In this document: positions 31,113 through 50,598 of the stretch, piece by piece
Position numbering within the stretch: the first letter of the stretch is position 1
Layout: each line of letters opens with the position of its first letter
Notes under the pieces: model-generated
Databases searched by the model: none
The model's input: the letters and a program-made list of their open reading frames with translations, nothing else
Told to the model about the DNA's origin: nothing
Made by a program: the position numbers and the translations under genes
Assembly (NCBI RefSeq): GCF_041909095.1
Contig: NZ_JAYREB010000003.1
Location: 136,826 to 200,825 of the forward strand
Direction of reading: 5' to 3'
Length of the DNA: 64,000 nucleotides
Source of the DNA: Azonexus sp.
GTDB taxonomy: Bacteria > Pseudomonadota > Gammaproteobacteria > Burkholderiales > Rhodocyclaceae

Positions 31113-31220
31113 CGAACGAAAATATGCACTTGCCCTGCCGCTTCATGGCAATATCATGGACTGCTTATCTAGATTGACTTGAGTGCTGGCGCGTTTCACG
31201 CCGCATCGACCTGCTTCTTC

Positions 31221-32360
31221 ATGACTTCGTCCCTGCCGGATCAACACGAAACCCTGCGTCGCTGGCGCCTGATCCTCGGCCGCTATGCCGAGGCGCCGAT
31301 GTCTTCCTGCACCAGTTTTTCCGGCCAGGACTGGCAACTCGATCAAACCCTCGATTTCCTTTACGGGCGCGAATACGAAGGGCGCGGCCTGGTGCGCGGC
31401 GGGGGGGGGGCGCTTGATCCGAGTCAGATTCAGGCGGTCGACTGGCTGAACCGCTCGCGCAAGCTGTTTCCCCGGGATGTCTACGAGCGCATGCAGACGC
31501 AGGCCGTCGAGCGTTACCAGATGACCGAATTGCTCAGCGACCCGGCCCTGCTCGAAGCGCTCGAACCGACACCGGCGCTGACCAAGGCCTTGATTTCGAT
31601 GCGCGGACGTCTTTCCGGGCAGATGCGGGATGCGGTGCGGCAGATCATCCGGCGCACCGTCGACGAGATCACCCGGCGCCTGCGCCAGGACTTCGTCAAT
31701 GCCCTCAGCGGCCGGCGTAACCGGCAGCGGCGCTCGTCGCTCAAGGATTCGCGCAATTTCGATGCGCGGGCAACCATCCTCGCCAACCTCAGGCACTTCG
31801 ATGTTGGGAGCAAACGCCTGCTGATCGAGCGCCCCTTGTTCAACGCCCGCGTCAAGCGCCATCTGCCCTGGGACGTCATCCTCTGCGTCGACCAGAGCGG
31901 CTCGATGCTCGACTCGGTCATCTACAGCGCCGTCCTCGCCGGCATCATGGCCAGCCTGCCGGCCGTCCGGGTCAAGCTCGTGCTGTTCGACACCAGTGTC
32001 GTCGACCTGACGCATCTCGCGCACGATCCGGTGGAAGTACTGCTCACCGTGCAACTGGGCGGCGGCACCGATATCGGTCGCGCTCTGCGCTATTGCGAAA
32101 CCCTGGTCGACCAGCCACAACGGACGGTTCTGGTGCTGATCAGTGACTTCGAGGAAGGGGCGCCGCCCCTGCATCTTCTTGCTGCCGTGAAGCGCCTCGC
32201 CGAATCCCGCGTCACCCTGCTCGGCCTGGCCGCGCTCGACGATGCCGCGACCCCCATTTACGACCGGCTGATGGCGCAGCGACTGGCCGATCGCGGCATG
32301 CAGATCGCCGCCCTGACGCCGCCCCATTTTGCCGAGTGGCTTGCGGAAGTCATGCAGTAG
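31221..32360 (+). CDS. CoxE-like von Willebrand factor A (vWA) domain protein, YehP-like
   Basis: N-terminal RWRLILGRY..., MIDAS motif ILCVDQSGSM with downstream GGGTDIG and LISDFEEG. I chose ATG 31221 over the TTG at 31179. Confidence 0.85.
   Translation: MTSSLPDQHETLRRWRLILGRYAEAPMSSCTSFSGQDWQLDQTLDFLYGREYEGRGLVRGGGGALDPSQIQAVDWLNRSRKLFPRDVYERMQTQAVERYQMTELLSDPALLEALEPTPALTKALISMRGRLSGQMRDAVRQIIRRTVDEITRRLRQDFVNALSGRRNRQRRSSLKDSRNFDARATILANLRHFDVGSKRLLIERPLFNARVKRHLPWDVILCVDQSGSMLDSVIYSAVLAGIMASLPAVRVKLVLFDTSVVDLTHLAHDPVEVLLTVQLGGGTDIGRALRYCETLVDQPQRTVLVLISDFEEGAPPLHLLAAVKRLAESRVTLLGLAALDDAATPIYDRLMAQRLADRGMQIAALTPPHFAEWLAEVMQ
31401..31410 (+). repeat. Homopolymeric G10 tract inside the vWA coding sequence
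   Basis: ggc GGG GGG GGG Gcg encodes RGGGGA at roughly codons 59-64 of the vWA gene. It is the longest mononucleotide run I found in the window. Confidence 0.9.
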
Positions 32361-32421
32361 ATGCTCGCCTGCCAATCATTGATATTTCAATCAAGGGACG
32401 CATCGCTTTGCTGCGTTCTGC

Positions 32422-35349
32422 ATGAGGAATGATGTGTCTCTTATAGACCAAGGAAATCTGGCTGCGCTTTTTTACAGCACCAAGGAAATGAAACGGCGGG
32501 CGCTCAAACGCGTGTCGATTGGCACGATGAATGTGACCAGCGGCAACATCGTTGCCTGCGATCCCATCGTGCAGCCTGACGGCGAGCCGTTTGCGCGCCA
32601 GGTGGCACCGGGTAGTTATGCCGTCGAGTACGTCGAAGGCAATTCACGTCCGGCTTTGCTGGTGCTGTGGCTACGCAAGCGCCAGGCAATCGATCCGGCG
32701 AAGATCACCTGGGAGATGGCCCTCCTCGCCGACCAGAATGCTGCCGATTTGGGCGAAGACGAATACTACGGTTACCCGGTCGACGCCGGTTGGGGATGCT
32801 TCATGGACGCCGATGCCGGGCGCGCCATGGCCGAACGGGAGGAACGCGCCAAAGCGGAAGACCCCGATTTCGACAACTACTACGAGGCCTTCCTGGCGGA
32901 AAAGACCGAGGATTGCGACGCCTTTGTCCATTGCCCATCGGGCGGGCAGGATGCAAGCAACATCATGCTGTGCACGTCTGGCTGGGGCGACGGCTACTAT
33001 CCCAGTTACTGGGCATTGGACAAGCAGGGCGAGGCGGTCGCGCTCGTTACTGATTTCGGCGTCATCACCAACGGCGATGCACGCAGCTCAGAAGACATCG
33101 CCGATGAAGCCTATCTGGCCAGCCTGTCGCCCGAGAAACTGGCGGCGCTGGAGGCCATGACGGCCGCGATTGAGGCCGGCGATGCCGACACGGCAGCAGC
33201 GCTGTGCGCCAGCGGCCTGGTCAGCGCCAACCAAATCATTCCGTCCACCGGCGACACCGCCATCCTGGATGCCATCCGCCTTGATCAGCAGGCCGTCCTC
33301 GCCGCATTGCTCGACGGCAAGCCGTGTCCGGATGTGCCGGGCAAACTCAAGCCCAACCCGCCCGATTACTTCAACTACGCCACGCGCTTGGGGCGTTTTT
33401 ATCAAAAGAAACGCAAACCCCGCACGCCGGAGTCGCTGGATATCCTGCGTCGGAACGCCGGGCTGGCCGAAAAGCCAGGTCGGCAGGTGAGCGCCGCTTC
33501 CGCTGCGGCCTTGCTCGCTTCAAGCGACATCCGCCTCGTCCCGACCGGCGAACTGCTGACGCGTTACTCGCTGTACCGTCTGCCTGGCTACGCCGAAGCT
33601 AACAAGCAGTCACCGCAGCCGTTGATCGCCGTGTGTGACGGCAACCTGACGCTGGATAGCCTGGACCTTGATTTCCCCGACGACGTTTCCGCAAGCCCGG
33701 CCGTCGGTTTCCTGGTCACCGGGAAGCTGACGGTCACCGGCAACATCACCAGCCAGAACAGCAAGGCGCGCAGCCTCGTCGTTCTCGGCGACCTGCATGC
33801 CGGCAATGTCGCCACCAGCGGTGCCGCCCTGCTCGTGCGCGGCAACGTGGTCGTCGATGGCGTCTGGTGCGGGAGCGGGGTGGGGGAATCCTGTATCGAC
33901 GGCGACTTCGTTGCCCGCCTGCTGATCGCCGATCATCACCGCTTTGCAATCGGCGGCGCGACGCGCGCGCCCAGGGCTGCACCGGAAAACACCGGTGCAC
34001 CGGTCCATTGGTCGCAGGCGCTCAAGGAGCCCAAAGGCGACGTGCCGATCCATTTTGTCCTGAACGAAGAATGCCTGGACGACCAGGCCTGGCCGTTCAA
34101 TTTCGCTGTTTTCCTTCAACGCCTGCAGGCCGGCTTGCCGGTACTTCATCCCGACTGCTGCGAAGGCTCGCCGAAACTGGCGCGGTGGCGCAAGGGCAAG
34201 GATTTTTTCACGGATGCCGAAGCGGACTACTACCGCGCTCACTACGAACGCGCCGCAAAGGCTTACAAGCAGGCCGAAGCAGCCGGCTGTCCGACCGCGC
34301 TCTGCCGCTACAAACGCGCCCTGAGCCATTTCAAGGACAAGGAACCGAAACAGGCGATCCCGCTGTTCTCCTGGTGCATCGACAACAATGCCTATCTCGG
34401 CGAGTCTCTGGTCAAGCGGGCTGCAGCGCAAATCATGCTTGTCCGTCAGGGGGAGCATGACGATGAAGCAGCGGCCTGCGCTGCCGCGCGGGCCGACTGC
34501 GCGCGCGTCATCGAAGCCGAAGGTTTTGGCCGTGAACGCAGCCTGCTCGACGCCCTGACCACACTCGGCGACGCGCTGTATCAGGCAGACGAGTTCGAGG
34601 CAGCCCTGGCACCGCTGACCCGAGCCCTGGAAATCGACAGCGCCGACCACGCAGCCAACAGCAACATGGGCAACTGCCTGTGGCATCTCGATCGCAGGAG
34701 CGAAGCCTTGCCCTATCTGGACAAAGCCATCGCAGCCGATCCAGATGAAGATTACGCCCACCTGATCAAGGCTTATTGCCACCTGGAACTCGAAGACTTC
34801 GCCGCCGCCGCGCAGAGCCTTTTCAACTATCTGGAGCGCAGGCCGGATAACCCGTCCGCCCGCGAACATCTGATCCGCTGCCTGGTCATCCTGGACCGCC
34901 TGACCGACGCCCAGGCCCAGGCTTTTGAAATGGACGAGCGCCATCCCGATCACTACCTGGTGAACGCCGACGGCATCATGGCCGACGCGTTGCGCAATGT
35001 GGGACGACATGAGGAAGCACTCAAGCACGCCGAGTTGTCGGCCAGGGCGAACCCGACGCCCGGTCATCATTTCTACATCAAGGGGCTTTGTCACTACGAC
35101 CTGCAGGACATCGACGGCGCGCTCGCCAGCTGGCATGCCCTGGCTGAAGTCGAACCGGACAACGTTTATGTCCTGAACCGGCTGGCCATCGGCTATCTGT
35201 CGAAAAATCCGGACACCGCGCTGAGCTATCTCGACAAATCCCTGGCAATAGACCCCGACTTCGCGCTAACGCTCAAATTGCGGGAGGCGTTCGTCAAAGC
35301 ACAGCCATCGCTGGCCTCGCGCCTGCGCGGCATGTTCAGCCGGAAGTAA
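32422..35349 (+). CDS. Large multidomain protein: N-terminal DUF4241-like domain, central beta-helix-like segment, C-terminal TPR repeats
   Basis: The N-terminus has the DUF4241-type pattern (VTSGNIVACDP...YGYPVDAGWGCFMD...CTSGWGDGYYPSYW). The central part has repetitive V/G-rich strands (GKLTVTGNITSQ..LVVLGDLHAGNVATSG..LLVRGNVVVDG). The C-terminus has several TPR-like units (e.g. ALEIDSADHAANSNMGNCLWHLDRRSEALPYLDKAIAADP). Confidence 0.6.
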   Translation: MRNDVSLIDQGNLAALFYSTKEMKRRALKRVSIGTMNVTSGNIVACDPIVQPDGEPFARQVAPGSYAVEYVEGNSRPALLVLWLRKRQAIDPAKITWEMALLADQNAADLGEDEYYGYPVDAGWGCFMDADAGRAMAEREERAKAEDPDFDNYYEAFLAEKTEDCDAFVHCPSGGQDASNIMLCTSGWGDGYYPSYWALDKQGEAVALVTDFGVITNGDARSSEDIADEAYLASLSPEKLAALEAMTAAIEAGDADTAAALCASGLVSANQIIPSTGDTAILDAIRLDQQAVLAALLDGKPCPDVPGKLKPNPPDYFNYATRLGRFYQKKRKPRTPESLDILRRNAGLAEKPGRQVSAASAAALLASSDIRLVPTGELLTRYSLYRLPGYAEANKQSPQPLIAVCDGNLTLDSLDLDFPDDVSASPAVGFLVTGKLTVTGNITSQNSKARSLVVLGDLHAGNVATSGAALLVRGNVVVDGVWCGSGVGESCIDGDFVARLLIADHHRFAIGGATRAPRAAPENTGAPVHWSQALKEPKGDVPIHFVLNEECLDDQAWPFNFAVFLQRLQAGLPVLHPDCCEGSPKLARWRKGKDFFTDAEADYYRAHYERAAKAYKQAEAAGCPTALCRYKRALSHFKDKEPKQAIPLFSWCIDNNAYLGESLVKRAAAQIMLVRQGEHDDEAAACAAARADCARVIEAEGFGRERSLLDALTTLGDALYQADEFEAALAPLTRALEIDSADHAANSNMGNCLWHLDRRSEALPYLDKAIAADPDEDYAHLIKAYCHLELEDFAAAAQSLFNYLERRPDNPSAREHLIRCLVILDRLTDAQAQAFEMDERHPDHYLVNADGIMADALRNVGRHEEALKHAELSARANPTPGHHFYIKGLCHYDLQDIDGALASWHALAEVEPDNVYVLNRLAIGYLSKNPDTALSYLDKSLAIDPDFALTLKLREAFVKAQPSLASRLRGMFSRK

Positions 35350-35744
35350 TGCCCATGTCGCGATCTGATCAATACTGCCCTGTCAAACTGGGCGATTCGT
35401 GGCCGGATGCCCAGGCGGCACTCGATACGACAGCAGCCTTGGAACCCTATTTCAACGATCCGGCGGTGCAGTCGGGCTGGCACATCAATCTGTTCGAGCG
35501 AGGGATCTGGCTCTTTCTCGATGACGCGTTGCGGATACGCACGCTGCGTTTCGATGCCCCGTTTGCTGGCGCGATAGATGGCGTGCGTATCGGCGACACA
35601 AGCCGGCAGGTCCGTCAGATAAAAGGCAAGTTCGATCGCAAATGGCCGGTCAATGATGGCCGGAAAACCTGGTTGTACGACTCGCCGTTCGTCAGGTTTG
35701 ATTTCAACGTCGCCAGCGATACGGTTGAGACGATCTTCTTGTGA
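35349..35744 (+). CDS. Hypothetical 131-aa protein, translationally coupled (TAATG) to the upstream gene
   Basis: ORF with overlapping stop/start. No recognisable motif. Confidence 0.4.
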   Translation: MPMSRSDQYCPVKLGDSWPDAQAALDTTAALEPYFNDPAVQSGWHINLFERGIWLFLDDALRIRTLRFDAPFAGAIDGVRIGDTSRQVRQIKGKFDRKWPVNDGRKTWLYDSPFVRFDFNVASDTVETIFL

Positions 35745-35798
35745 TTGATCGATTCTTCCCGATGGCGGCAAGCCATGCGCCGGGCAAAAATCGGCCGG

Positions 35799-35815
35799 TT
35801 TTCCGGTTGACCGTG
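35799..35815. repeat. Copy A of the 17-nt motif TTTTCCGGTTGACCGTG
   Basis: Identical to 50582-50598, the right arm of the terminal hairpin. Lies in the 84-nt gap before the SWIM gene. Confidence 0.8.
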
Positions 35816-35828
35816 GAGTCTTGCTGAA

Positions 35829-37880: not shown

Positions 37881-37948
37881 TGGTTTATTGCGTGCCCCTG
37901 GCGGGGCGAAATCCGGATGTGCTGATCAAAAACAAGGAGGTCAAGGAG

Positions 37949-41746: not shown

Positions 41747-41806
41747 CCGGGTAATTTCTGCCTTGAGCCTGCCCTTCCTCCCTTTTCCAAATTCCTGGGA
41801 AATACG

Positions 41807-43000: not shown

Positions 43001-43026
43001 ACGAAGCGGACGACCAAGTGCGTTGT

Positions 43027-43046
43027 CACGGTCAACCCGAAAATCG
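43027..43046. repeat. Copy B (degenerate, opposite orientation) of the shared motif
   Basis: CACGGTCAACCCGAAAATCG versus the left hairpin arm CACGGTCAACCGGAAAAAACG at 50556-50576. Lies in the 126-nt gap after the LRR gene. Confidence 0.6.
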
Positions 43047-43126
43047 TTGATTTTTGGCATTGGCGACCAAAGTGCCTCGACTGAGTTGAGGCATTAAAAC
43101 CGAAAGAATGTTAAACGGAGCATGTT

Positions 43127-46100
43127 ATGGATTTGATGAGCAAAATCAGGGAATACGTCGCCAGCCTGGCAGGCAAGCAGCCGCCTGCCGTGCCTCGCGA
43201 TTTGAGCAAGGAACAACAAAAGTGGCTTGAACAGGCTTTCGCGCCGCTCGCCTGTGCCGACAAGGGGATGCCGGACAAGGTGCTGAACTATGTTTTAACG
43301 GGTGGGAACGAGGCTGTTCTGCATGAGCTGCGGCAATCGAAGGAACTTGGCTCCCAATTGGGGCAGCCGGGCCGTCTGCACGGCAGTTACCACGGCGGCG
43401 GAAAGCTAACCGAAAAGAGCATGGCGGCACGCGCCAGGTTTTATGCCAGTCTGGATGCCGATGCGCCGCCTCTTGGTGTGATGGTCCGCTTGGGCAAGGT
43501 GCTGACCATGGCGGATGCCGGCGAGTCGCTTGAGGATCCGGGGGCGCCGGTGCCGACATGGTGCCAGTACCTGGTCAATGACGCCATGTTCGCCAGTCTG
43601 AACCATTACTACGTGAGCAGTGACATGAAGGCGCTCCTGGAGAGCAAGCGGGGTGCGTTCTCGCTCCCCAATCTCCTGGCGATGCTCAAAAGCGAGGAGG
43701 AGGAGGGCAACAAAGTCCCTTCGGAACTCACTGTGCTGCAATTGGTGTTTGAGCGCCAAGGGCTGACCAATCCCGACAACGACGCCCTCGAGGTGATTGT
43801 CGATCACCCCGCAACGCTGCAATTCATGCGCGATTACCCGCAACTGGTGGCAGTGCTGCCGCGCGTTCTCGCTGCTGCCGGGCGTGTGCTTCTGGCGAAT
43901 TTTCTCGGGCGGCACAAGGAGCTCGCCGCCGAATGCAAGGAATTCGGCGTGGCGCTGGTGGCGCTGGCCGTCGATAGTGGCAAGACCGTGCGTGCCGCAG
44001 CCACGCCCCATCTGGACGGCTTGCCGGAAGAGTTGCGGATGGGACTGCTGGCCTTCTTCCTGCAACGGGGCGAGGGCACGGTGCGACAGTACGCGGCTGA
44101 CTTGCTGGTCCGCTGGCCGTCTCCCGAGGTTCGGGCAACGCTGGAAGCTGCGCTGGCAGAAGAGAGCAGCAAGAGCGTTCAGCACAGCATTCGCGGCGCC
44201 CTGGGCCGGCTTGACGTGGCCGACGACTCCGACGGCCAGGATTTTCCCCCGTTGCCAGACTGGACGCCGTTGCCGGATGAGCCGCTGGGGCCTGAGGTCG
44301 AGAGCCTCCTTTTGGCCAATCGGCGTGAATTGCTGGAAAACTATCGCCTGGAAGCCGAAGAGGAGAAGCGGAAAAACGCCGCCCAGAAGGGGCGGGATCA
44401 CACCTGGCGACAACGTCAGTACAAGGAGTTCATGGCGCTCACTGACGACGATTTGCGCCTTGCGCTAAAGGTGATCAACGGTCAGTCAACCGACAAGGAG
44501 TTGAGCACCGAACTCGGCGCCGATCTCAGGGAAATCCTGGAACATGAGGGAAAAATCTTTGCATTGCCCGCTTTTGGGGGGGCGCATCACATCCGTTGGC
44601 GGAGCTACTTTGACGAGGATGGCGATTTCTGGCCGTTTGATGAATTTCATCAATGGCTCTTGAAACAGCCGGTCGGTTCGGTCGATCTGCGCGCCCTTGC
44701 CGATGTCGTGCAACGTTCCGGATATTCGTTGGAAACAGTGGCTCGTGCATCACTGGTCGATTTCTGGCGTAATCCTCCCGCATTTGAAGTTCTCCCGCCG
44801 GAATGTGTCTGGCCTTTCTTTGCCGAGCACCCTGAATTCATCGATGCCGGCCTGAACACTTCCGCCCGGTTGGACGCCACGATACGGACCATCGGTACCT
44901 TTCCGGTGATTCCCGGTCGCTGGTTGCCGCGTCTGATGGAAATTGCGCTGGGCGAGGCCTGGGAATGCAGGGCCGAGGCCCAGAAGGTTCTTGGCATCGT
45001 CCCGGATATTGGTAAATATGTACTGGAGACGCTGACCCATTCGAAGAGCGAGATGCGTATTGAAGCCGCCTGCTGGCTGGCCAATCTGCAATATCAGCCG
45101 GCGGTCGAAGCGATCAGGAAAGCTTTGGTCAAGGAAAGCCGTGAAGCCGTGCGCGCCGCTTTCCTGACCGCGCTGGAAGAGTTGGGCGCAGATATTGCCG
45201 CCTACATTGCCCCGGACGTCCTGCTCGCCGAAGCCAGGAAGGGGCTGAAAGCCAGGCTGCCGGCCGGCTTCGACTGGTTCAATCTGGATGCGCTGCCGGC
45301 CTGCCACTGGGCGGACGGCACGCCGGTCGAGGCGGACTGCATCAAATGGTGGGTGGTCTTCGCCTGCAAGCTCAAGTGGCCGGGCGGTAACCCGCTGCTC
45401 CGGCGCTACCTCGGCCTGCTCGACGCCGCCAGCCGCGAAGCGCTGGGCCGCCACATCCTCCACCAGTTCATCGCCCAGGACACCCGCCACCCCAGCGAAG
45501 CCGAATGCATCGCCTACGCCGACGCCTACGCTCCCGGTCGCTGGCAACAATTCCAGGGTAACTACAGGCGGACCAAGGACGAGTTCTACAACCGCAGCCA
45601 GGAACAGATCTACGCTGAATGCAAGGCCAGCAAGGCTGCCGAATACCTCGGCAGTGCCATCGGCGAAAAAGGCATCCTCGCCTTGTCCGCCTACGCGCCC
45701 GGCCACGAAGCCGTCAACTTGCTGCGCCAGTACATGCGTGATCACTACCCCCGGCGGGCGCAGATCGAAGCCATGCTCGAAGGACTGGCACCTGGCAACG
45801 ATCCTTTCGTCATCCAGCTCCTGCTCGGCCTCTCCCGCCGCTATCGCACCGCCTCGGTGCAGGAGAAGGCGCGCCTGCTGGTGCAGCAGATCGCCGACCG
45901 CAACGGCTGGTCAGCCGATCAGCTCGCCGACCGCACCATCCCCACCGCCGGCTTCGACGACAGCGGCAAGCTCGAACTGCATTATGGCGACCGCCTGTTC
46001 ACCGTCACCCTCGACGCGGCGATGAAACCCGAACTGCGCAACGCCGAAGGCAAGGTCATCAAGGCCCTGCCCGAACCCCGGCAGACCGACGATCCGGACA

Positions 46101-46915
46101 GCATCAAGGAAGCCAAGGGGCAATTCTCGGGCTGCAAGAAGGAACTCAAGCAGGTCATCGAATTGCAGACCGCCCGCCTCTACGAAGCCCTTTGCGTCAG
46201 TCGCCTCTGGCCGCAGGCCGAGTGGCGCGAATACCTCCTGCAGCATCCGGTGGTCGGGCGCCTGATCCAGCGCCTGATCTGGCTGGAAACCGACGCCCAG
46301 GGCCAGCCGCTGCAAAGCTTCCGGCCGACCGAAGACGGCACGCTGATCAACACCGACGATGACGAAATCACGCTGAACGAAGGCAGCCTGATCCGCCTCG
46401 CCCACGCCTCGCTCGTTACGCCGGACAGCGCCAAAGCCTGGCAGGCGCATTTCAAGGACTACAAGCTGACGCCGCTCTTCGCGCAGATGACCCGGCCCTT
46501 GCCCGAGATCGCGATGACCGATGCTGAAGGCAAGCCGGTTCAGGAAATCGCCGATCGCCAGGGCTGGCTGAGCGACACCTTCACCCTGCGCGGCGCCTTC
46601 AACAAGCTGGGCTACCAGCGCGCCGCAGCCGAGGATGGCGGCTACTTCAATCATTACTTCAAGGAGTTCGGTGCCGCCGGCATTCGCGTGGTGGTGGAAT
46701 TCACCGGTAACTGCCTGCCCGAGGAAAACGTGGCGGCAGCGCTGCGCGTCCTGCGTTTCGAAGATACGCGGGGTAGCCGCTGGCAGTCGAATAACCTGGA
46801 TCTCGCCAGCGTGCCGGTGGTTCTGCTGGCCGAGGCCTATGCCGACTATCTGGCGGTAGCCAATGTCTGTTCCGGCTTCGATCCGGAGTGGGAAAAGAAA
46901 AGTCCGTGGTATTGA
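43127..46915 (+). CDS. Giant HEAT-repeat / DUF4132-like protein, paralog B (YehI/MolR-like)
   Basis: 1262 aa. ACGGAG lies 6 nt upstream of ATG 43127. Colinear with paralog A over its full length. The N-terminal ~640 aa are only about half identical, and the C-terminal ~440 aa are nearly identical. Confidence 0.7.
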   Translation: MDLMSKIREYVASLAGKQPPAVPRDLSKEQQKWLEQAFAPLACADKGMPDKVLNYVLTGGNEAVLHELRQSKELGSQLGQPGRLHGSYHGGGKLTEKSMAARARFYASLDADAPPLGVMVRLGKVLTMADAGESLEDPGAPVPTWCQYLVNDAMFASLNHYYVSSDMKALLESKRGAFSLPNLLAMLKSEEEEGNKVPSELTVLQLVFERQGLTNPDNDALEVIVDHPATLQFMRDYPQLVAVLPRVLAAAGRVLLANFLGRHKELAAECKEFGVALVALAVDSGKTVRAAATPHLDGLPEELRMGLLAFFLQRGEGTVRQYAADLLVRWPSPEVRATLEAALAEESSKSVQHSIRGALGRLDVADDSDGQDFPPLPDWTPLPDEPLGPEVESLLLANRRELLENYRLEAEEEKRKNAAQKGRDHTWRQRQYKEFMALTDDDLRLALKVINGQSTDKELSTELGADLREILEHEGKIFALPAFGGAHHIRWRSYFDEDGDFWPFDEFHQWLLKQPVGSVDLRALADVVQRSGYSLETVARASLVDFWRNPPAFEVLPPECVWPFFAEHPEFIDAGLNTSARLDATIRTIGTFPVIPGRWLPRLMEIALGEAWECRAEAQKVLGIVPDIGKYVLETLTHSKSEMRIEAACWLANLQYQPAVEAIRKALVKESREAVRAAFLTALEELGADIAAYIAPDVLLAEARKGLKARLPAGFDWFNLDALPACHWADGTPVEADCIKWWVVFACKLKWPGGNPLLRRYLGLLDAASREALGRHILHQFIAQDTRHPSEAECIAYADAYAPGRWQQFQGNYRRTKDEFYNRSQEQIYAECKASKAAEYLGSAIGEKGILALSAYAPGHEAVNLLRQYMRDHYPRRAQIEAMLEGLAPGNDPFVIQLLLGLSRRYRTASVQEKARLLVQQIADRNGWSADQLADRTIPTAGFDDSGKLELHYGDRLFTVTLDAAMKPELRNAEGKVIKALPEPRQTDDPDSIKEAKGQFSGCKKELKQVIELQTARLYEALCVSRLWPQAEWREYLLQHPVVGRLIQRLIWLETDAQGQPLQSFRPTEDGTLINTDDDEITLNEGSLIRLAHASLVTPDSAKAWQAHFKDYKLTPLFAQMTRPLPEIAMTDAEGKPVQEIADRQGWLSDTFTLRGAFNKLGYQRAAAEDGGYFNHYFKEFGAAGIRVVVEFTGNCLPEENVAAALRVLRFEDTRGSRWQSNNLDLASVPVVLLAEAYADYLAVANVCSGFDPEWEKKSPWY
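44901..46911 (+). repeat. Dispersed direct repeat, copy 2 (3' third of paralog B)
   Basis: Partner of 39735-41745. The perfect block 45577-46332 equals 40411-41166. Confidence 0.9.
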
Positions 46916-46942
46916 TCGCGATGTGTTCTTGACAGGTTAAAG

Positions 46943-48049
46943 ATGAGCAAAACAACTTCTTCTCCTTCGCAGGCCGTGCGCCTGCCGCCGGAGCAACGTT
47001 ACGCCGATGAACTGGCGCGGCTCGCCGAACATGATGGCGAGCCGCGCCCGGCCGGCTGGAAACTGTCGCCCAAGGCGGTGCGCCGCTTCATCATCGGCGA
47101 TGAAAAACTGGGCGTGACGCGCAAGTTCTACGGCGACGATCCGCTGGTCGACCGCGCCATCGTCACCTTGATGGGCCATCAGGGCCTGATGCTGGTCGGC
47201 GAGCCGGGGACCGCCAAATCGCTGTTGTCGGAGTTGCTGTCCACCGCCATCAGCGGCGATTCCGGCCTGACTGTGCAAGGGACGGCCGGCACCACCGAGG
47301 ATCACCTGAAATACAGTTGGAACTACGCGCTGCTGCTCGCCGAGGGGCCGAGCCAGCGGGCGCTGGTGCCGTCGCCGTTGTATCAGGGCATGCGCCAGGG
47401 CAAGATCGTCCGCTTCGAGGAAATCACCCGCTGTCCGCCGGAAATCCAGGACGTGATGATTTCCCTGCTCAGCGACAAGCAGTTGATGGTGCCGGAACTG
47501 GGCGACGACGCCCGCCTGCATGCGCAACGTGGCTTCAACGTCATCGCCACCGCCAACCTGCGTGACCGGGGCGTGCATGAGATGTCCTCAGCCTTGAAGC
47601 GGCGTTTCAATTTCGAGACGGTGCGGCCGATTCGCGACCATGCCTTCGAGGTCGAACTGGTCACCGCACAGGTGCAGCGCGAAATGGTCGGCAGCGGCGC
47701 GGCGGTGGCCTTGCCGCAGGATGTCGTGGCGCTGCTGGTGACGACCTTCCAGGAATTGCGCGCCAGCCAGACCAAGGACGGCGTGGCGCTGAAGAGTCTG
47801 GATACGGTGATGTCCACCGCCGAGGCGGTCAACGTGGTCTATGCGGCGGCGCTGGAGGCGCAGCATTTCAACGGTGGCAAGCTGACGGCGCGCGAGATTG
47901 CCGGGCAGTTGCAGGGCGTCGTCCTCAAGGACAGCCTCGACGACGCCAAGCGCGTGCGCCACTATTTCGAGACCGTGGTGCGCGAGCGCGGCAAGCGCGA
48001 CGGCAACTGGAAGGCCTTTCACGACGCGGCGCGGGCACTGTGGCAATAG
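46943..48049 (+). CDS. MoxR-class AAA+ ATPase (AAA_5-type), YehL-like
   Basis: Walker A LVGEPGTAKS, Walker B-like IVRFEEI, VIATANLRDRG...SSALKRRF. The 368-aa single-AAA architecture is typical of MoxR-family partners of vWA proteins. Confidence 0.88.
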   Translation: MSKTTSSPSQAVRLPPEQRYADELARLAEHDGEPRPAGWKLSPKAVRRFIIGDEKLGVTRKFYGDDPLVDRAIVTLMGHQGLMLVGEPGTAKSLLSELLSTAISGDSGLTVQGTAGTTEDHLKYSWNYALLLAEGPSQRALVPSPLYQGMRQGKIVRFEEITRCPPEIQDVMISLLSDKQLMVPELGDDARLHAQRGFNVIATANLRDRGVHEMSSALKRRFNFETVRPIRDHAFEVELVTAQVQREMVGSGAAVALPQDVVALLVTTFQELRASQTKDGVALKSLDTVMSTAEAVNVVYAAALEAQHFNGGKLTAREIAGQLQGVVLKDSLDDAKRVRHYFETVVRERGKRDGNWKAFHDAARALWQ

Positions 48050-50550
48050 AAACAAGCGAATTGCCGCGCGAACTACGGGCCGCGCAGGCCGAACTGGCCG
48101 GGTGCGATGGCCTGTATTTCGCGCCGGTGCGGCATCACAGCCCGGCCTGTACGCTGGCCTTGCGGCATTTGCTGCACGAGGTGCGGCCGAGCGTCGTCCT
48201 GGTCGAGGGACCGGACGATCTCGATCACCTGCTGCCCCTGTTGCAGGACGAGCGCACCCGGGCGCCGGTCGCCTGGTTGTGCCAGAGCGGGCAGGCGGCG
48301 GCCGGCCGCGACGAAGCAGCAACGGAGGACGGAGATGATGCCGGCGACGACGAGACCGAACGGCCGGCGATGCGCACCTCCTTCTTCCCGTTCTGCGATT
48401 ACAGCCCGGAATGGCTGGCCATCCGCGAGGGGGCGGCGCTCGGCGCGCAGGTCGCGCTGATCGATCTGCCCTGGGCGCACAAGGCCTGGCAGGCCGAGCA
48501 CGACGCCGCCGGCCTGAGCCTGATGCATGAGCGGCATTACGCACACAGCCGCTATCTCAAGGCGATGGCTGCTCGCCTGGGCTGCGTCGACCATCACGAA
48601 CTGTGGGACCGCCTGTTCGAACTGCGTTCGCCGGCCGCGCTGGCCGACTGGCGGGGATTCTTTGCCGACGTCTTCGCCTGGTCGGCGATGGCGCGCCAGG
48701 ACTACGAGCCGGAAGTGCTCGAAGCCGAACTCAGCCTGCCGCGCGAACGCCAGATGGCGGCGCATATCCGCGCCTGGCGGGAAAAGTGCACCGGCAACAT
48801 CGTCGTCGTCACCGGCGGTTTCCATACCCAGGAGCTGATTTCCCGCTGGCGTCAGGCTGGCCGGCCGGAGAAACTGCCGGCCAGCGCGTCGGCGGAAGGG
48901 GGCGCCTGGCTGATCCGCTATGCCTTCGAGAGCCTGGATGCCTTGAACGGCTATTCGGCAGGGATGCCTTCGCCGGCCTATTACCAGCAGCTCTGGGAAG
49001 CCTTGCAGACTGCCGATGACGATCCCTGGCAGCGCATCGCGGTCGATCTCCTGAGCCGCTTCGCCCGCCAGCAACGCGACGTAGACCAGGCCGACGCCGC
49101 GTCGACCGCGCTGGTCCAGGAGGCCGTGTTGCAGGCCACGCGGCTGGCCCAGTTGCGCGGCAACGCCGGGCCGGGACGGCAGGATGTGCAGGACGCCATC
49201 CGTTCCTGTTTCGTCAAGGGGGCGGATGACGATGGTACGCGCGGCATGCTTGGCGACTTGCGCCGCTTTCTGGCCGGGACGCGCATCGGCGACGTGCCGC
49301 CCGGCGCCGGATCGCCGCCGCTGGTCGAGGATGTTCGCCGCCAGGCGAGGTCGCTCGGCTTGCAGCTTGACGACAGTGTGCCGCGCAAGGTCCGTCTCGA
49401 CCTTTATCGCAAGCCGTCACATCGTCTGCGCAGCCGCTTCTTCCACGCGATGCGTTATCTCGAATGCCCGCTGGTCCGCCATCTGAGCGGCCCGGATTTT
49501 TACGGCAACGCCCAGTTGCACCTGCTGTTCGAAGAATGGGAGGTGGCCTGGTCGCCGCTGGTCGATGCGCGCCTGATCGAACTGAGCAGCGCTGGCGCCA
49601 GCCTTGAAGCGGTGTGCCTGCAACGCCTGGAGGACGATGCCCGCGCCCTCGAAACGGCGGGCGCGACGCGCAGTGCCAGCGCCGCCGTCGGCCTCCTGCT
49701 GCGCGCCTGCCTGATCGGTTTGCACAGGCGTCTGCCGCAGCTGTTCGAACTGCTGTCGACGCAGCTTGACGAAGATGCCTCGCTGGCCTCGGTGGTCGAT
49801 TGCGGTCATCGTCTGCTCACCCTCTGGCGCGCCCGCGAACCGCTCGGTGTCCAGGCGCATCCGTTGCTCGGCAGCCTGCTCGGCCGGGTCTGGCCGGCGG
49901 CGATGTTCCTGCTTTCGGAAATCGTCTGGAGCGATCCGGACACGGCAGACGAGCGTATCGGTCAGCTGCTTGCCCTGCGCGAACTGGGGAAGCTGCTCGA
50001 AAATACGGAATTCCACGGGCAAGCGGAAAAATTGATCGATTTTGCCATCCTCCACGCCCGGCTCGTGGCTCTGCTCGCCGATCCAGCCACGGCGCCAGGC
50101 ATCGCCGGCGCGGCCGCCGCCATGCTGTTTCTCGACGGTCTCGGCGACGAAGCGCGGCTCGAGCAGCAGCTTCTGCTGCATTTTTCGCCCGGCGTGCCCG
50201 AACACCACGCCGTGCGTTTTCTCGGTGGTTTGATGCAGGCAGCGCCGGAACTGCTCCTGCGCCTGCCGTCCATGCTGCAGCGGCTGGACCGCTTGATCGC
50301 GGCCTGGGAGGGCGAGGATTTCATCGCCCATCTGCCCGATCTGCGCTTTGCCTTCACCCGCCTGAAGCCGCAGGAAAGCGCCCGGCTGGCGGAAACGATC
50401 GTGGCGTTGCATGGTCACGGGCCGGAAGCCGCCGCCAGCTTGTTGCCCTGGCATGGCGAAGTCAGCGAGGCCGATCTGATGGCGGGCAGTCGCCTGCAGC
50501 AGGTGCTGGCGCATGAGTTGAACCGGGACGGCCTGGGGGCCTGGATTTAG
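48040..50550 (+). CDS. Large uncharacterised protein, DUF5682/YehM-like
   Basis: 836 aa. GTG 48040 overlaps the AAA+ stop by 10 nt. The assignment rests mainly on its position directly downstream of the YehL-like ATPase and its size. I saw no catalytic motif. Confidence 0.5.
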   Translation: MAIETSELPRELRAAQAELAGCDGLYFAPVRHHSPACTLALRHLLHEVRPSVVLVEGPDDLDHLLPLLQDERTRAPVAWLCQSGQAAAGRDEAATEDGDDAGDDETERPAMRTSFFPFCDYSPEWLAIREGAALGAQVALIDLPWAHKAWQAEHDAAGLSLMHERHYAHSRYLKAMAARLGCVDHHELWDRLFELRSPAALADWRGFFADVFAWSAMARQDYEPEVLEAELSLPRERQMAAHIRAWREKCTGNIVVVTGGFHTQELISRWRQAGRPEKLPASASAEGGAWLIRYAFESLDALNGYSAGMPSPAYYQQLWEALQTADDDPWQRIAVDLLSRFARQQRDVDQADAASTALVQEAVLQATRLAQLRGNAGPGRQDVQDAIRSCFVKGADDDGTRGMLGDLRRFLAGTRIGDVPPGAGSPPLVEDVRRQARSLGLQLDDSVPRKVRLDLYRKPSHRLRSRFFHAMRYLECPLVRHLSGPDFYGNAQLHLLFEEWEVAWSPLVDARLIELSSAGASLEAVCLQRLEDDARALETAGATRSASAAVGLLLRACLIGLHRRLPQLFELLSTQLDEDASLASVVDCGHRLLTLWRAREPLGVQAHPLLGSLLGRVWPAAMFLLSEIVWSDPDTADERIGQLLALRELGKLLENTEFHGQAEKLIDFAILHARLVALLADPATAPGIAGAAAAMLFLDGLGDEARLEQQLLLHFSPGVPEHHAVRFLGGLMQAAPELLLRLPSMLQRLDRLIAAWEGEDFIAHLPDLRFAFTRLKPQESARLAETIVALHGHGPEAAASLLPWHGEVSEADLMAGSRLQQVLAHELNRDGLGAWI

Positions 50551-50555
50551 GCTGC

Positions 50556-50598
50556 CACGGTCAACCGGAAAAAACGCCGTTTTTTCCGGTTGACCGTG
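50556..50598. terminator. Perfect 21-nt-arm palindrome closing the cluster, between convergent yehM-like and ackA genes
   Basis: CACGGTCAACCGGAAAAAACG-C-CGTTTTTTCCGGTTGACCGTG. The internal A6/T6 runs make it a plausible bidirectional terminator. Its arms recur at 35799-35815 and 43027-43046. Confidence 0.65.

What the first reader, a model, noticed from the sequence alone, without database searches (positions are those of the whole stretch)
31221..50598. 19.4-kb MoxR AAA+ / vWA / SWIM / DUF4132 / DUF5682 gene block with TPR, LRR and HEAT repeat proteins: a functionally unassigned system
Seen in sequence: ten same-strand genes with short gaps or overlaps (TAATG at 35347-35351; GTG 48040 inside the AAA+ gene's 3' end). 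They encode the following.
- A CoxE-like vWA protein with an intact MIDAS motif (VDQSGSM).
- A 975-aa DUF4241-like/beta-helix/TPR protein.
- A 131-aa orphan.
- A SWIM zinc-finger protein (CDCPAPGVCKH).
- Two ~1,260-aa HEAT/DUF4132-like paralogs flanking an LRR protein.
- A MoxR-class AAA+ ATPase (GEPGTAKS).
- An 836-aa YehM-like protein.
Established knowledge: the same five core families make up the E. coli molR/yehI-yehL-yehM-yehP-yehQ neighbourhood, for which I know of no demonstrated biochemical role. MoxR+vWA pairs elsewhere act as remodelling or cofactor-insertion chaperones (CbbQ/O, NorQ/D, CoxD/E, RavA/ViaA). They have also been proposed computationally as cores of NTP-dependent conflict systems.
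Inference: this version carries three classes of repeat-type binding modules (TPR, LRR, HEAT), diversifying paralogs, a possible phase-variable tract and its own repeated boundary motif. That profile fits a sensing or conflict apparatus better than a dedicated housekeeping chaperone. However, I see no recognisable effector (nuclease, protease, TIR, pore-former), so the output activity is unknown.
Basis: partly seen in the sequence, partly recalled or inferred. Interest (0 to 1): 0.85.

Follow-up and report, generated by a model that had tools for sequence, protein, structure and literature searches.

The report
Elaborated YehLMPQ-type MoxR–vWA gene cluster
This is an unusually decorated copy of a widespread five-gene bacterial machine, also found in almost every E. 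coli, whose job has never been worked out; here it carries two extra sensor-like gene cassettes, and one core protein may contain a hidden enzyme domain.

Summary
The gene block is real. It has nine (not ten) co-directional genes, and Pfam supports every family call. Five genes are homologues of E. coli YehP (vWA), YehQ (SWIM), YehI (DUF4132), YehL (MoxR) and YehM (DUF5682).

In 81 related loci, 71 hold all five families; the other ten lack at least one within the fetched span, mostly at contig ends. The gene order follows three circular permutations. No conserved outside client enzyme was found.

The window's copy is exceptional in two ways:
- A DUF4241-TPR + 131-aa cassette splits the V-S junction, which is uninterrupted in all 72 other junctions.
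- An LRR-DUF6892 gene plus a second DUF4132 paralogue fill the D-M slot. In relatives this slot holds PIN, PDDEXK-like, Bax1-I, DUF6891 or DUF6932 genes.

Both cassettes have lower GC3. The two paralogues share a 759-nt identical tract but have divergent N-terminal halves. The "orphan" is a domain that elsewhere is fused to TIR, TPR/Sel1 and trypsin domains.

An AF2 model suggests a TraB/TIKI-like fold in the DUF5682 N-terminus, a candidate catalytic centre. Support is structural and motif-level only.

A conflict or surveillance role is plausible but unproven. The cluster is core in E. coli (98%), its flanks are housekeeping genes, and PADLOC finds nothing. The function is still unknown, and I class this as a new variant of a known uncharacterised kind.

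The parts
31041..31157 (+). 5' region shared with the divergent class II ribonucleotide reductase gene. It holds G9 (31041-31049), G8 (31105-31112) and a sigma-70-like site TTGCCC-16-TATCAT (31130-31157).
   Evidence: G/C runs >=8 are rare in related loci: 5 in 1.6 Mb.
31221..32360 (+). CoxE-type vWA protein (YehP homologue, 379 aa) with MIDAS DQSGS at residues 224-228. An in-frame G10 tract at 31401-31410 encodes the conserved Gly-rich linker.
32422..35349 (+). Accessory cassette 1, gene 1: DUF4241 (aa 37-210), an unassigned middle region, and TPR (aa ~700-960). An alternative start lies at 32434. GC3 is 0.75.
   Evidence: All 53 differences from a 98.9%-identical strain fall at 33240-35042.
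35349..35744 (+). Accessory cassette 1, gene 2: 131-aa (or 129-aa from 35355) stand-alone copy of an unnamed ~120-aa domain. Elsewhere this domain is fused to TIR, TPR/Sel1 and trypsin domains. GC3 is 0.69.
35786..35816 (.). Half copy of the repeated motif (TTTTCCGGTTGACCGTG), lying directly after cassette 1.
35829..37880 (+). SWIM zinc-finger protein (YehQ homologue, 683 aa; CDCPAPGVCKH at residues 67-77).
37949..41746 (+). DUF4132/HEAT protein a (YehI homologue, 1265 aa from ATG 37949).
41807..43000 (+). Accessory cassette 2: LRR + DUF6892 protein (397 aa). GC3 is 0.70.
   Evidence: Two other assemblies are 100% identical.
43024..43046 (.). Half copy of the repeated motif (CACGGTCAACCCGAAAA), lying directly after the LRR gene.
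43127..46915 (+). DUF4132/HEAT protein b (1262 aa). Its N-terminal half has lower GC3 (0.71) than that of paralogue a (0.79).
40408..41166 (+). 759-nt stretch perfectly identical to 45574-46332 in paralogue b (offset 5166). I read it as a gene-conversion tract. It covers aa ~820-1073, including the start of the DUF4132 domain.
46943..48049 (+). MoxR-class AAA+ ATPase of the YehL subfamily (368 aa). Walker A GEPGTAKS lies at residues 86-93.
   Evidence: The only PDB sequence matches at E<1e-5 are midasin.
48040..50550 (+). DUF5682 protein (YehM homologue, 836 aa). Residues ~20-320 are a predicted alpha/beta domain with invariant R31-H32-H33, E56 and G259-G260-F261-H262, TraB/TIKI-like. The C-terminal half is an alpha-solenoid.
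50556..50598 (.). Perfect 21+21-nt palindrome built from the repeated motif, between the convergent DUF5682 and acetate kinase genes. It is probably a bidirectional terminator.
   Evidence: -37.4 kcal/mol, z = -7.6

Best explanation
The block is the V-S-D-M-Y (Burkholderiales/Rhodanobacter-type) arrangement of the conserved five-gene YehP/YehQ/YehI/YehL/YehM module. Two later-acquired cassettes have been inserted into it.

Proposed mechanism (inferred):
- The MoxR hexamer (YehL-like, with midasin-like AAA_5 modules) and its MIDAS-bearing vWA adaptor form an ATP-driven remodelling engine.
- This engine acts on its own large partners, not on an outside metalloenzyme. The partners are the SWIM protein, the HEAT/DUF4132 solenoid(s) and DUF5682.
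- The solenoid proteins, with their divergent N-terminal halves, serve as ligand- or target-binding scaffolds. In this genome the added TPR and LRR proteins do the same.
- The MoxR/vWA pair sets a threshold, or gates the assembly.
- The output is carried by the TraB/TIKI-like putative metal-dependent hydrolase domain at the N-terminus of DUF5682. In relatives, genes that sit in the D-M slot (PIN, PDDEXK-like, Bax1-I and others) may add to the output.
- The most likely biological role is stress or invader surveillance (a conflict-type system), possibly tied to DNA damage, rather than cofactor insertion.

Shown: gene content, homology, co-conservation, slot variability, cassette insertion and paralogue mosaicism. 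Inferred: complex formation, gating, catalytic output and biological role.
For: - Family calls and Yeh homology.
- All five families occur together in 71 of 81 loci. The rest lack at least one family within the fetched span, mostly at contig ends (L011, L013 and L060 begin at D, with V-S expected further upstream). The orders are three circular permutations of D-M-Y-V-S.
- The M-Y, Y-V and V-S junctions overlap or nearly abut (medians +10, -9 and -3 nt). That suggests translational coupling and stoichiometric complexes.
- No conserved external client. The nearest flanks are miscellaneous: MFS, EcsC, KAS, MnmA and others.
- The D-M slot carries 0.6-5.4 kb inserts in 11 of 66 junctions, encoding PIN, a DUF1016/YhcG PDDEXK fragment, Bax1-I, DUF6891 + VanW-glycosyltransferase, or DUF6932.
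- The window's cassettes have lower GC3 (0.69-0.75) than the core (0.80-0.85). They are reproduced in independent assemblies.
- The 131-aa domain is fused to TIR in 8 of 53 multidomain relatives, and also to TPR/Sel1 and trypsin.
- LRR-DUF6892 genes sit next to DUF5724(-DUF4132) giant proteins in two unrelated contexts.
- Tandem DUF4132 paralogues occur in 19 loci. Here they are a mosaic of divergent N-halves and a 759-nt identical tract.
- For the DUF5682 N-terminal model (pLDDT 85.7, pTM 0.87), the best PDB neighbours are 383-384-residue Tetrahymena complex IV chains (prob 0.72-0.91, ~300 aligned columns). Their length matches the only ~385-aa subunit, COXTT5, which is annotated as a TraB family protein.
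- Three motifs are colinear with E. coli TraB-family YbaP at similar spacing: VRHH/GSIH, LIEG/IVEA and TGGFH/VGALH.
- The MoxR's only strong PDB sequence matches are midasin.
- Literature: molR (the WGR/DUF4132 gene heading the E. coli cluster) is listed as LexA-regulated; D. radiodurans DUF4132 and WGR genes are DdrO-regulated; yehL/yehM are de-repressed in hns/stpA mutants.
Against: - PADLOC found no defence family beyond one weak candidate-family hit on the SWIM protein: PDC-S62, E = 2e-4, over the SWIM motif only.
- The cluster is nearly universal and single-copy in E. coli (98% of 5426 complete genomes). This is unlike typical mobile defence systems.
- No integrase, transposase, restriction-modification or toxin-antitoxin family appears among the 25 most frequent of the 115 Pfam families matched by 119 nearest-flank ORFs.
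- The TraB link fails profile-profile and HMM tests: hhalign probability ~1%, aligning only the last motif. TM-scores are low (0.30-0.36).
- dN/dS between the paralogues is below 1 in every window where it could be computed.
- None of the window's accessory genes recurs in the 81 related loci, so they may be hitchhikers.
- No LexA box is present in the window.
- There is no experimental evidence of any kind for a complex, an activity or a phenotype.
Confidence: 0.4

Rival explanations
1. Housekeeping or stress maturation machine. The MoxR/vWA pair is an ordinary assembly or cofactor-insertion chaperone whose client is encoded inside the cluster. For example, it could load a metal into the His/Glu/Cys-rich DUF5682 N-terminal domain, or assemble the solenoid proteins. 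It would then resemble CoxD/E, NorQ/D, CbbQ/O or RavA/ViaA, with no role in conflict.
For: - The vWA protein is of the CoxE type.
- The cluster is core and vertically stable in E. coli.
- Flanks are housekeeping genes and PADLOC finds no defence family beyond one weak candidate-family hit over the SWIM motif.
- DUF5682 has many invariant His, Cys, Glu and Asp residues, which would suit a metal site.
- The tight M-Y and Y-V coupling fits a chaperone-client pair.
Against: - No recognised metalloenzyme lies in or beside 81 loci.
- The variable slot with nuclease- and membrane-type genes, the tandem diverging DUF4132 paralogues and the TIR-associated accessory domain are not expected for a dedicated maturation factor.
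- By sequence the MoxR is nearer to midasin than to solved CbbQ/RavA-type proteins.
Confidence: 0.3
2. DNA-damage-linked machine. The module acts on DNA or chromatin-like substrates after genotoxic stress. SWIM, and in other species WGR, would provide nucleic-acid recognition, and the AAA+/MIDAS engine would remodel a nucleoprotein complex.
For: - molR appears in the list of LexA-regulated genes with a known SOS box.
- A near-consensus box, CTGGATAAAATTACAG, lies 10 nt upstream of yehF.
- D. radiodurans DUF4132 (DRA0166) and WGR (DR2173) genes are strongly DdrO-regulated.
- PolB and YdjM, which are SOS genes in E. coli by my own knowledge, each appear twice among the nearest flanks.
- E. coli YehF is a WGR protein.
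Against: - The window has no CTGT-N8-ACAG box.
- WGR was detected next to the cluster in only one of the 81 loci.
- No nuclease, helicase or recombinase belongs to the core.
- SOS induction is also common for prophage-related and conflict functions, so it does not discriminate between the readings.
Confidence: 0.12
3. Composite locus. Only the five core genes form a system. The DUF4241-TPR + 131-aa pair and the LRR-DUF6892 gene are unrelated, horizontally acquired passengers that landed in intergenic gaps. On this reading the 19.4-kb 'system' overstates functional unity. This rival can hold together with any of the others.
For: - The accessory genes have distinctly lower GC3.
- They are absent from all 81 related loci.
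- Each cassette is followed by a copy of a local repeat or terminator-like motif.
- LRR-DUF6892 homologues mostly sit in unrelated contexts.
- The V-S junction is otherwise never interrupted.
Against: - All genes are co-directional with gaps of 60-127 nt.
- LRR-DUF6892 recurs beside DUF5724(-DUF4132) proteins in Cellulophaga and in one metagenome contig.
- A DUF6891 gene occupies the equivalent slot in L002.
- The second DUF4132 copy arrived with the LRR gene and has since been homogenised with copy a. That implies selection to keep it compatible with the core.
Confidence: 0.35

Closest known systems
E. coli K-12 yehF-yehH(molR)-yehI-yehK-yehL-yehM-yehP-yehQ cluster (YehL subfamily of MoxR AAA+ ATPases)
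   Same: It has the same five protein families, with direct sequence homology: 52% MoxR, 45% vWA, 28% DUF5682, 30% DUF4132 C-terminal part, 30% SWIM N-terminus. It also has tandem DUF4132 genes and a small gene in the D-M slot (yehK).
   Different: The gene order is rotated (V-S-D-M-Y here, D-D-K-M-Y-V-S in E. coli). The window has no WGR gene. It has extra DUF4241-TPR + 131-aa and LRR-DUF6892 cassettes, G tracts at the 5' end, and no LexA box. The function of the E. coli cluster is itself unknown.
MoxR-vWA 'ternary' conflict systems (VMAP, iSTAND, FtsH and beta-propeller types; Kaur et al. 2020, PMC7159879)
   Same: Both have a MoxR + vWA core, additional conserved partner(s), variable accessory or effector genes, and repeat-type (TPR and similar) modules. 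The concept of chaperone-based thresholding is shared.
   Different: None of the four defining third components was detected. bpMoxR scores 21.2 bits, below the 27-bit cut-off. That paper does not mention SWIM, DUF4132 or YehL. The partners here are SWIM, DUF4132 and DUF5682.
Client-specific MoxR/vWA maturation chaperones (CoxD/CoxE, NorQ/NorD, CbbQ/CbbO, RavA/ViaA)
   Same: Both have an AAA_5 ATPase plus a MIDAS-containing vWA partner, and the vWA is of the CoxE Pfam family.
   Different: No adjacent client enzyme (CODH, NOR, Rubisco, LdcI/Nuo) occurs in 81 loci. Three large conserved partners of unknown function take its place.
Midasin/Rea1 (eukaryotic ribosome-assembly AAA+ with a C-terminal MIDAS domain)
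   Same: The MoxR's only PDB sequence matches at E<1e-5 are midasin AAA modules (E = 1e-11). Both combine an AAA_5 motor, a MIDAS domain and long helical-repeat elements.
   Different: The components here are separate polypeptides. No UBL-type substrates were identified. The resemblance is an analogy of parts, not demonstrated homology of the whole system.
TraB/PrgY/GumN-TIKI-ChaN-erythromycin-esterase superfamily (for the DUF5682 N-terminal domain)
   Same: The predicted alpha/beta fold has a TraB-family protein as its best structural neighbour in the PDB. Three colinear motifs (xxHH after strand 1, E at the end of strand 2, GGFH after a late strand) parallel GSIH / VEA / GALH of E. coli YbaP.
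   Different: There is no significant sequence or profile similarity, and TM-scores are only 0.30-0.36. The domain is embedded in an 836-aa protein with an alpha-solenoid tail.

Membership tests
YehL-type MoxR five-gene module (YehI/L/M/P/Q) | MoxR AAA_5 ATPase homologous to YehL over its full length, with an intact Walker A | tested here: met
   52% identity over 351 aa, E = 1e-123. AAA_5 at 1.3e-36. GEPGTAKS present.
YehL-type MoxR five-gene module (YehI/L/M/P/Q) | CoxE-type vWA protein with MIDAS, homologous to YehP | tested here: met
   45% identity over 374 aa. VWA_CoxE at 5e-51. DQSGS present.
YehL-type MoxR five-gene module (YehI/L/M/P/Q) | DUF5682 (YehM) protein adjacent to the MoxR gene | tested here: met
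   DUF5682 at 3.7e-100. 28% identity over 785 aa to YehM. The gene overlaps the MoxR 3' end. The M-Y junction median is 10 nt across 78 loci.
YehL-type MoxR five-gene module (YehI/L/M/P/Q) | SWIM zinc-finger protein (YehQ) | tested here: met
   The CxCx8CxH motif is present. BLASTP to YehQ gives E = 1e-6 over 73 aa. Pfam SWIM scores 18.7 bits, just below the 19.6 cut-off. The syntenic position next to vWA holds in 72 loci.
YehL-type MoxR five-gene module (YehI/L/M/P/Q) | DUF4132 (YehI) protein(s), and co-occurrence of all five families in one cluster | tested here: met
   DUF4132 at 4e-34 and 1.5e-35. 30% identity to the YehI C-terminal part. 71 of 81 loci hold all five families.
MoxR-vWA ternary conflict systems (Kaur et al. 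2020) | A third core component of VMAP, inactive STAND, FtsH or vWA-fused beta-propeller type | tested here: not met
   Pfam finds none of these. bpMoxR scores 21.2 bits against a cut-off of 27. The paper does not mention SWIM, DUF4132 or YehL. No dedicated VMAP profile was available, so that single item is only indirectly tested.
Known anti-phage defence systems (PADLOC-DB v2) | Significant match of the core proteins to a defence-system HMM | tested here: not met
   The only hit is a weak one (E = 2e-4) of the SWIM motif to the candidate family PDC-S62. The other eight proteins have none.
Client-specific MoxR/vWA maturation chaperones (CoxDE, NorQD, CbbQO, RavA-ViaA) | A conserved neighbouring client enzyme | tested here: not met
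   Flanks differ between lineages. The census of 119 nearest-flank ORFs shows no recurrent metalloenzyme. The ViaA model scores 17.6 bits against a cut-off of 500.
TraB/TIKI superfamily (DUF5682 N-terminal domain) | Shared alpha/beta fold | tested here: inconclusive
   The best PDB hits are 7w5z_E, 8b6h_DQ and 8bqs_DQ (prob 0.72-0.91, E = 0.1, TM 0.30-0.36, ~300 columns). I assign these chains to the TraB-family subunit COXTT5 by length only.
TraB/TIKI superfamily (DUF5682 N-terminal domain) | Conserved GxxH ... E ... GxxH catalytic motifs (feature recalled from the literature on TIKI/TraB) | tested here: inconclusive
   Invariant H32-H33, E56 and G259-G260-F261-H262 follow predicted strands at spacings like those of YbaP (H41, E67, H252). 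hhalign aligns only the last motif.
TraB/TIKI superfamily (DUF5682 N-terminal domain) | Significant sequence or profile similarity to PF01963 members | tested here: not met
   hhalign probability is 0.7-1.3%. hmmsearch E > 0.8. Pfam gives no hit at E <= 10. The TraB profile available was narrow (enterobacterial YbaP only).
Phase-variable (contingency) locus | Homopolymer tract whose length differs between closely related genomes or reads | tested here: not met
   G9, G8 and G10 have the same lengths in the window, in L091 (100% identical) and in L090 (98.9% identical). Read-level heterogeneity could not be tested.

The most novel reading that the evidence does not exclude
The YehI/L/M/P/Q module is a widespread, so far unrecognised MoxR-vWA-gated surveillance (immune or conflict) system. 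Its DUF4132 solenoids and swap-in TPR/LRR proteins would sense targets. Its output would be a cryptic TIKI/TraB-like hydrolase in YehM, plus exchangeable effectors (PIN, PDDEXK, Bax1-I and others) in a dedicated D-M slot. The window would then show the most elaborated, multi-sensor form.
Probability: 0.25. Interest if true: 0.85.

Novelty: new variant of a known kind. Interest (0 to 1): 0.6.

Why it matters
- YehL is one of seven MoxR subfamilies, and the literature I could search describes no function for it or its partners. Its five-gene module sits in 98% of complete E. coli genomes and in at least 574 of about 186,000 species representatives. Assigning it a function would close a long-standing gap in the E. 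coli K-12 gene list.
- This analysis turns an 'unassigned block' into specific tests:
  - a fixed five-protein core with tight M-Y-V-S coupling;
  - one variable slot;
  - a candidate catalytic site (H32/H33/E56/H262 of the YehM-like protein);
  - a possible link to DNA damage.
- If the conflict reading holds, it would add a new class of chaperone-gated immunity with modular sensors.
- If the chaperone reading holds, it would define a new client class for MoxR/vWA engines.

Tried and rejected
- **Literature.** Searches for DUF4132, DUF5682, yehLMPQ, DUF4241, DUF6891/6892/6932 and YehL found nothing functional.
- **Defence and naming libraries.** PADLOC and NCBIfam give no defence family and no curated name for the core.
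- **PDB by sequence.** No hits for DUF5682, DUF4132, SWIM, vWA, DUF4241 or DUF6892.
- **Whole-protein fold search of DUF5682.** It returned only generic alpha-solenoid matches, so I re-modelled the N-terminal 325 aa alone.
- **TraB link by sequence.** hhalign and HMM searches against a YbaP-family profile were not significant. The YbaP homologue search returned only close enterobacterial sequences, which made a poor profile.
- **LexA box.** None in the window.
- **Rfam.** No hits across the block.
- **Phase variation.** Tract lengths are identical in three assemblies.
- **Positive selection between paralogues.** dN/dS is below 1 wherever it could be computed.
- **Relatives of the TPR protein.** The metagenome scan found none. 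Its exact protein is not on record because public gene calls use a later start.
- **'Beta-helix' in the 975-aa protein.** No profile support.
- **The 17-nt motif.** It does not occur in any of the 87 other loci fetched by then, so it is genome-specific and not part of the system's conserved anatomy.
- **Defence-island test.** The Pfam census of nearest flanks showed no mobile-element or defence families among the most frequent ones. It is a crude test, because my ORF calling was simple and I had no background sample.

Full report
**1. Observation check**

The region 31221-50550 carries nine co-directional ORFs on the + strand, not ten.
- VWA_CoxE (5e-51).
- DUF4241 (6e-39) plus a block of TPR families.
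- SWIM (1.2e-3, marginally below the gathering score).
- Two DUF4132 (4e-34 and 1.5e-35), each with a HEAT_2 hit.
- LRR families plus DUF6892 (4e-45).
- AAA_5 (1.3e-36).
- DUF5682 (3.7e-100).

The quoted motifs are present: GEPGTAKS, DQSGS and CDCPAPGVCKH.

Start codons were refined. The vWA gene starts at ATG 31221, which matches YehP and the public gene calls. DUF4132a starts at ATG 37949, behind an AAGGAGG site. Public calls start the TPR gene at 32434 and the small gene at 35355, so the TAATG overlap is only one possible reading.

**2. Homology to the E. coli yeh cluster**

I fetched the K-12 yeh region and compared proteins directly:

| Window protein | E. coli protein | Identity |
|---|---|---|
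| MoxR | YehL | 52% |
| vWA | YehP | 45% |
| DUF5682 | YehM | 28% over 785 aa |
| DUF4132a/b | YehI | 30% over the C-terminal 280-350 aa |
| SWIM | YehQ | 30% over the zinc-finger region |

YehL is one of seven MoxR subfamilies (PMC3893208). Searches for functional work on it or its partners found nothing.

**3. Co-conservation**

These come mostly from Proteobacteria, with some from Verrucomicrobiota and Acidobacteriota and single Clostridia and Bifidobacteriaceae MAGs. With one further contig this makes 81 loci.
- All five families lie together in 71 loci. The other ten lack at least one family within the fetched span, mostly because of contig ends. L011, L013 and L060 begin at D, so V-S would lie further upstream.
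- The orders are three circular permutations of one cycle: D-M-Y-V-S (45 loci, the E. coli type), V-S-D-M-Y (17 loci, the window's type) and M-Y-V-S-D (9 loci, Acinetobacter).

Junction statistics:

| Junction | n | Median gap | Inserts |
|---|---|---|---|
| V-S | 72 | -3 nt | none (largest gap 66 nt) |
| Y-V | 55 | -9 nt | none |
| M-Y | 78 | about 10 nt | one outlier of 790 nt (L009) |
| D-M | 66 | 28 nt | 11 inserts of 0.6-5.4 kb |

- Tandem DUF4132 genes occur in 19 loci.
- The D-M inserts encode a PIN protein, a DUF1016/YhcG PDDEXK fragment, a Bax1-I membrane protein with unknown 190-194-aa partners, DUF6891 plus a VanW-glycosyltransferase, DUF6932, and large unknown proteins.
- Flanking genes differ between lineages. 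A Pfam census of the 119 nearest flanking ORFs shows miscellaneous housekeeping families. None of the 25 most frequent families (of 115 matched) is a recurrent metalloenzyme, integrase, transposase, restriction-modification or toxin-antitoxin family.

The third, an adjacent client enzyme, was not found.

**4. What is special in this window**

None of the 81 loci has a homologue of the DUF4241-TPR protein, the 131-aa protein or the LRR-DUF6892 protein.
- *Cassette 1.* The TPR + 131-aa pair interrupts the V-S junction, which is otherwise never interrupted.
- *Cassette 2.* The LRR gene and a second DUF4132 copy occupy the D-M slot.
- *Composition.* GC3 is 0.86-0.89 in the flanking nrd, ackA and pta genes and 0.80-0.85 in the core genes. 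It is 0.75, 0.69 and 0.70 in the three accessory genes. It is 0.71 in the N-terminal half of DUF4132b, against 0.79 for paralogue a. This points to later acquisition of both cassettes.
- *Not an assembly artefact.* Independent metagenome assemblies are 100% identical over 41680-45113 and over 30634-35360.
- *Paralogue mosaic.* The N-terminal ~600 residues of the two DUF4132 paralogues are 42-68% identical with saturated dS. A 759-nt stretch (40408-41166 = 45574-46332) is perfectly identical. Overall dN/dS is 0.39. I read this as gene conversion that keeps the C-terminal (DUF4132) module uniform while the N-terminal halves stay different.
- *Localised allelic divergence.* A third assembly, 98.9% identical, differs from the window at 53 positions. 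All of them lie in the middle and TPR part of the DUF4241-TPR gene (33240-35042; 27 non-synonymous positions and 26 synonymous). None lies in the 2.7 kb to its left. This suggests localised allelic exchange.
- *G tracts.* The window's only G/C runs of 7 or more all lie in the block: G9 and G8 upstream of the vWA gene, G10 inside it, and G7 in the LRR and DUF4132b genes. Homologous vWA genes encode the same Gly-rich linker with mixed codons, and their longest G run is 6. But tract lengths are the same in all three assemblies, so phase variation is not evidenced.
- *Boundary motif.* The 17-nt motif CACGGTCAACCGGAAAA occurs six times against 0.15 expected. One half copy follows each cassette. A perfect 43-nt palindrome sits after the last gene and folds at -37.4 kcal/mol, z = -7.6. 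The motif is absent from the 87 other loci fetched by then. It looks like a genome-specific terminator or REP-like element.

**5. Protein-level leads**

- *MoxR.* Its only PDB sequence matches at E<1e-5 are midasin/Rea1 (1e-11).
- *DUF5682.* It models well (pLDDT 83, pTM 0.70). There is an N-terminal alpha/beta domain, a small middle domain and a C-terminal alpha-solenoid. Whole-protein fold search gave only solenoid matches.
- *DUF5682 N-terminal domain.* The N-terminal 325 residues were modelled alone (pLDDT 85.7, pTM 0.87).
  - Their best PDB neighbours are three 383-384-residue chains of Tetrahymena complex IV (prob 0.72, E = 0.1, TM 0.30-0.36, about 300 columns). The full-length query gave prob 0.91 for the same chain.
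  - The only complex IV subunit of that length is COXTT5, 385 aa, annotated 'TraB family protein' (PMC10060162 supplement).
  - The invariant residues of the family include R31-H32-H33 after strand 1, E56 in strand 2 and G259-G260-F261-H262 after a late strand. They are colinear with GSIH, VEA and GALH of the E. coli TraB-family protein YbaP, at similar spacing.
  - hhalign aligns only the last motif, at about 1% probability, and HMM searches fail.
  - I therefore treat a TraB/TIKI-like hydrolase domain as a lead, not a result. That TIKI is a metalloprotease and that erythromycin esterases and ChaN belong to this superfamily is my own recollection of the literature.
- *The 131-aa protein.* It belongs to an unnamed domain family with 200 representatives. 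Among 53 multidomain members, 8 carry TIR_2, 4 carry TPR, 3 carry Sel1 and 2 carry trypsin-like domains. The TPR + small-protein pair thus looks like a split version of the X-TPR-domain proteins common in conflict-type architectures.
- *LRR-DUF6892.* Homologues mostly lie in unrelated contexts. Two lie a few small genes away from DUF5724-family giant proteins: a DUF5724-DUF4132-DUF7737 protein in Cellulophaga, and a contig-truncated DUF5724 protein on a metagenome contig, L097. That is a recurrent though not obligatory link to this family of giant proteins.

**6. Biological role**

Points in favour of a conflict or surveillance role:
- The exchangeable D-M slot holds nuclease- and membrane-type genes.
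- DUF4132 genes occur as tandem, diverging paralogues.
- The accessory 131-aa domain is associated with TIR elsewhere.
- TPR and LRR modules are present.
- yehL and yehM are up-regulated in hns/stpA mutants (PMC3686432).
- There is a DNA-damage link. molR is listed among LexA-regulated genes with known SOS boxes (PMC6590174). A near-consensus box lies upstream of yehF. Deinococcus DUF4132 and WGR genes are DdrO-controlled (PMC8533742).

Points against:
- yehM is present once, on the chromosome, in 5333 of 5426 complete E. coli genomes.
- Flanks are housekeeping genes.
- PADLOC finds nothing beyond one weak candidate-family hit over the SWIM motif.
- dN/dS is below 1 wherever it could be computed.
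- The window has no LexA box.

The MoxR-vWA 'ternary systems' of Kaur et al. (PMC7159879) give the closest conceptual model, chaperone-based thresholding with variable effectors. Their defining third components are absent here, and that paper does not cover SWIM, DUF4132 or YehL.

**7. Proposed mechanism**

- *Shown.* A fixed five-gene core; tightly coupled M-Y-V-S genes; one variable slot; two later-acquired cassettes in this genome.
- *Inferred.*
  - The MoxR ring and the MIDAS adaptor remodel or gate a complex of the SWIM, DUF4132 and DUF5682 proteins.
  - The solenoid, TPR and LRR parts bind targets.
  - The DUF5682 N-terminal domain, and slot genes where present, provide the output.
- *Confidence.* I put this at 0.4. 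An internal-client maturation chaperone is at 0.3, and a DNA-damage-specific machine at 0.12. Independently of those, there is a 0.35 chance that the accessory genes are mere passengers.

**8. Novelty and score**

The core is a known, annotated but uncharacterised kind. The window is a new, elaborated variant.

What this analysis adds, to my knowledge:
- the circular-permutation synteny;
- the single variable slot;
- the conversion tract between the paralogues;
- the TIR-associated small domain;
- the TraB-like lead.

Interest is 0.6. The finding is not categorically new, but it makes a long-standing 'y-gene' question directly testable.

Noticed in passing
window 31041-31049, 31105-31112, 31401-31410, 41982-41988, 44576-44582: All five G/C homopolymer runs of 7 or more in the 64-kb window lie on the + strand inside this block (G9, G8, G10, G7, G7). 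The G10 encodes a conserved Gly-rich linker that 23 homologues write with mixed codons. The G9, G8 and G10 tracts have the same length in three assemblies.
   Followed up: partly
window 35799-35815, 43027-43043, 50556-50598 (weaker copies at 50014 and 52160): The 17-nt motif CACGGTCAACCGGAAAA is repeated (6 matches against 0.15 expected). Half copies follow each accessory cassette, and a perfect 43-nt palindrome follows the last gene (-37.4 kcal/mol). The motif is absent from the 87 other loci held at the time. It may be a genome-specific terminator or REP-like element.
   Followed up: partly
window 40408-41166 and 45574-46332: A 759-nt perfectly identical stretch lies inside two DUF4132 genes that are otherwise only 75-85% identical, or unalignable at the nucleotide level in their first ~0.8 kb. 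It looks like a recent gene-conversion tract. The repeat finder did not report it as such.
   Followed up: yes
L090 (SRR15048724) versus window 30508-35360: All 53 differences between two 98.9%-identical strains fall within 33240-35042, the middle and TPR part of the DUF4241-TPR gene. None falls in the nrd 5' end, the intergenic region, the vWA gene or the DUF4241 domain. This suggests localised recombination.
   Followed up: partly
window 35349-35744; relatives P0338-P0487: The 131-aa protein defines a ~120-aa domain family with no Pfam model. The domain is found alone, at the C-terminus of TIR, TPR/Sel1 and trypsin proteins, and repeated about 12 times in a 2112-aa protein (P0339).
   Followed up: partly
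L087 1686-11743 (Cellulophaga omnivescoria) and L097 1273-7229: A giant DUF5724-DUF4132-DUF7737 protein (contig-truncated, with only DUF5724 seen, in L097) lies within a few small unannotated genes of an LRR-DUF6892 protein. No MoxR or vWA family appears among the called genes. This may be a related but simpler DUF4132-centred locus type in Bacteroidota.
   Followed up: no
flanks of the 81 related loci (alignment A5): DNA polymerase II (PolB) and YdjM each appear twice among the nearest flanking ORFs. By my own knowledge both are SOS-regulated in E. coli. EcsC-family genes flank the Acinetobacter-type clusters (8 loci).
   Followed up: no
window 30905-30950: An AT-rich segment with palindromic character (atctactagatatagtgctatcgagcaacacg) lies just upstream of the divergent class II ribonucleotide reductase gene (27985-30873, - strand). 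From memory it resembles NrdR boxes. I did not test this.
   Followed up: no
window 15346-18732 (- strand): A 1128-aa ORF has no Pfam match at E<=1e-3. It lies next to type IV pilus genes: a PilY1-like gene at 20890-24351 and an N-methyl pilin-like gene at 24978-26009.
   Followed up: no
L061 15352-15402: A 51-nt poly-C run sits at the very end of a Verrucomicrobiota MAG contig. It is most likely an assembly or sequencing artefact.
   Followed up: no
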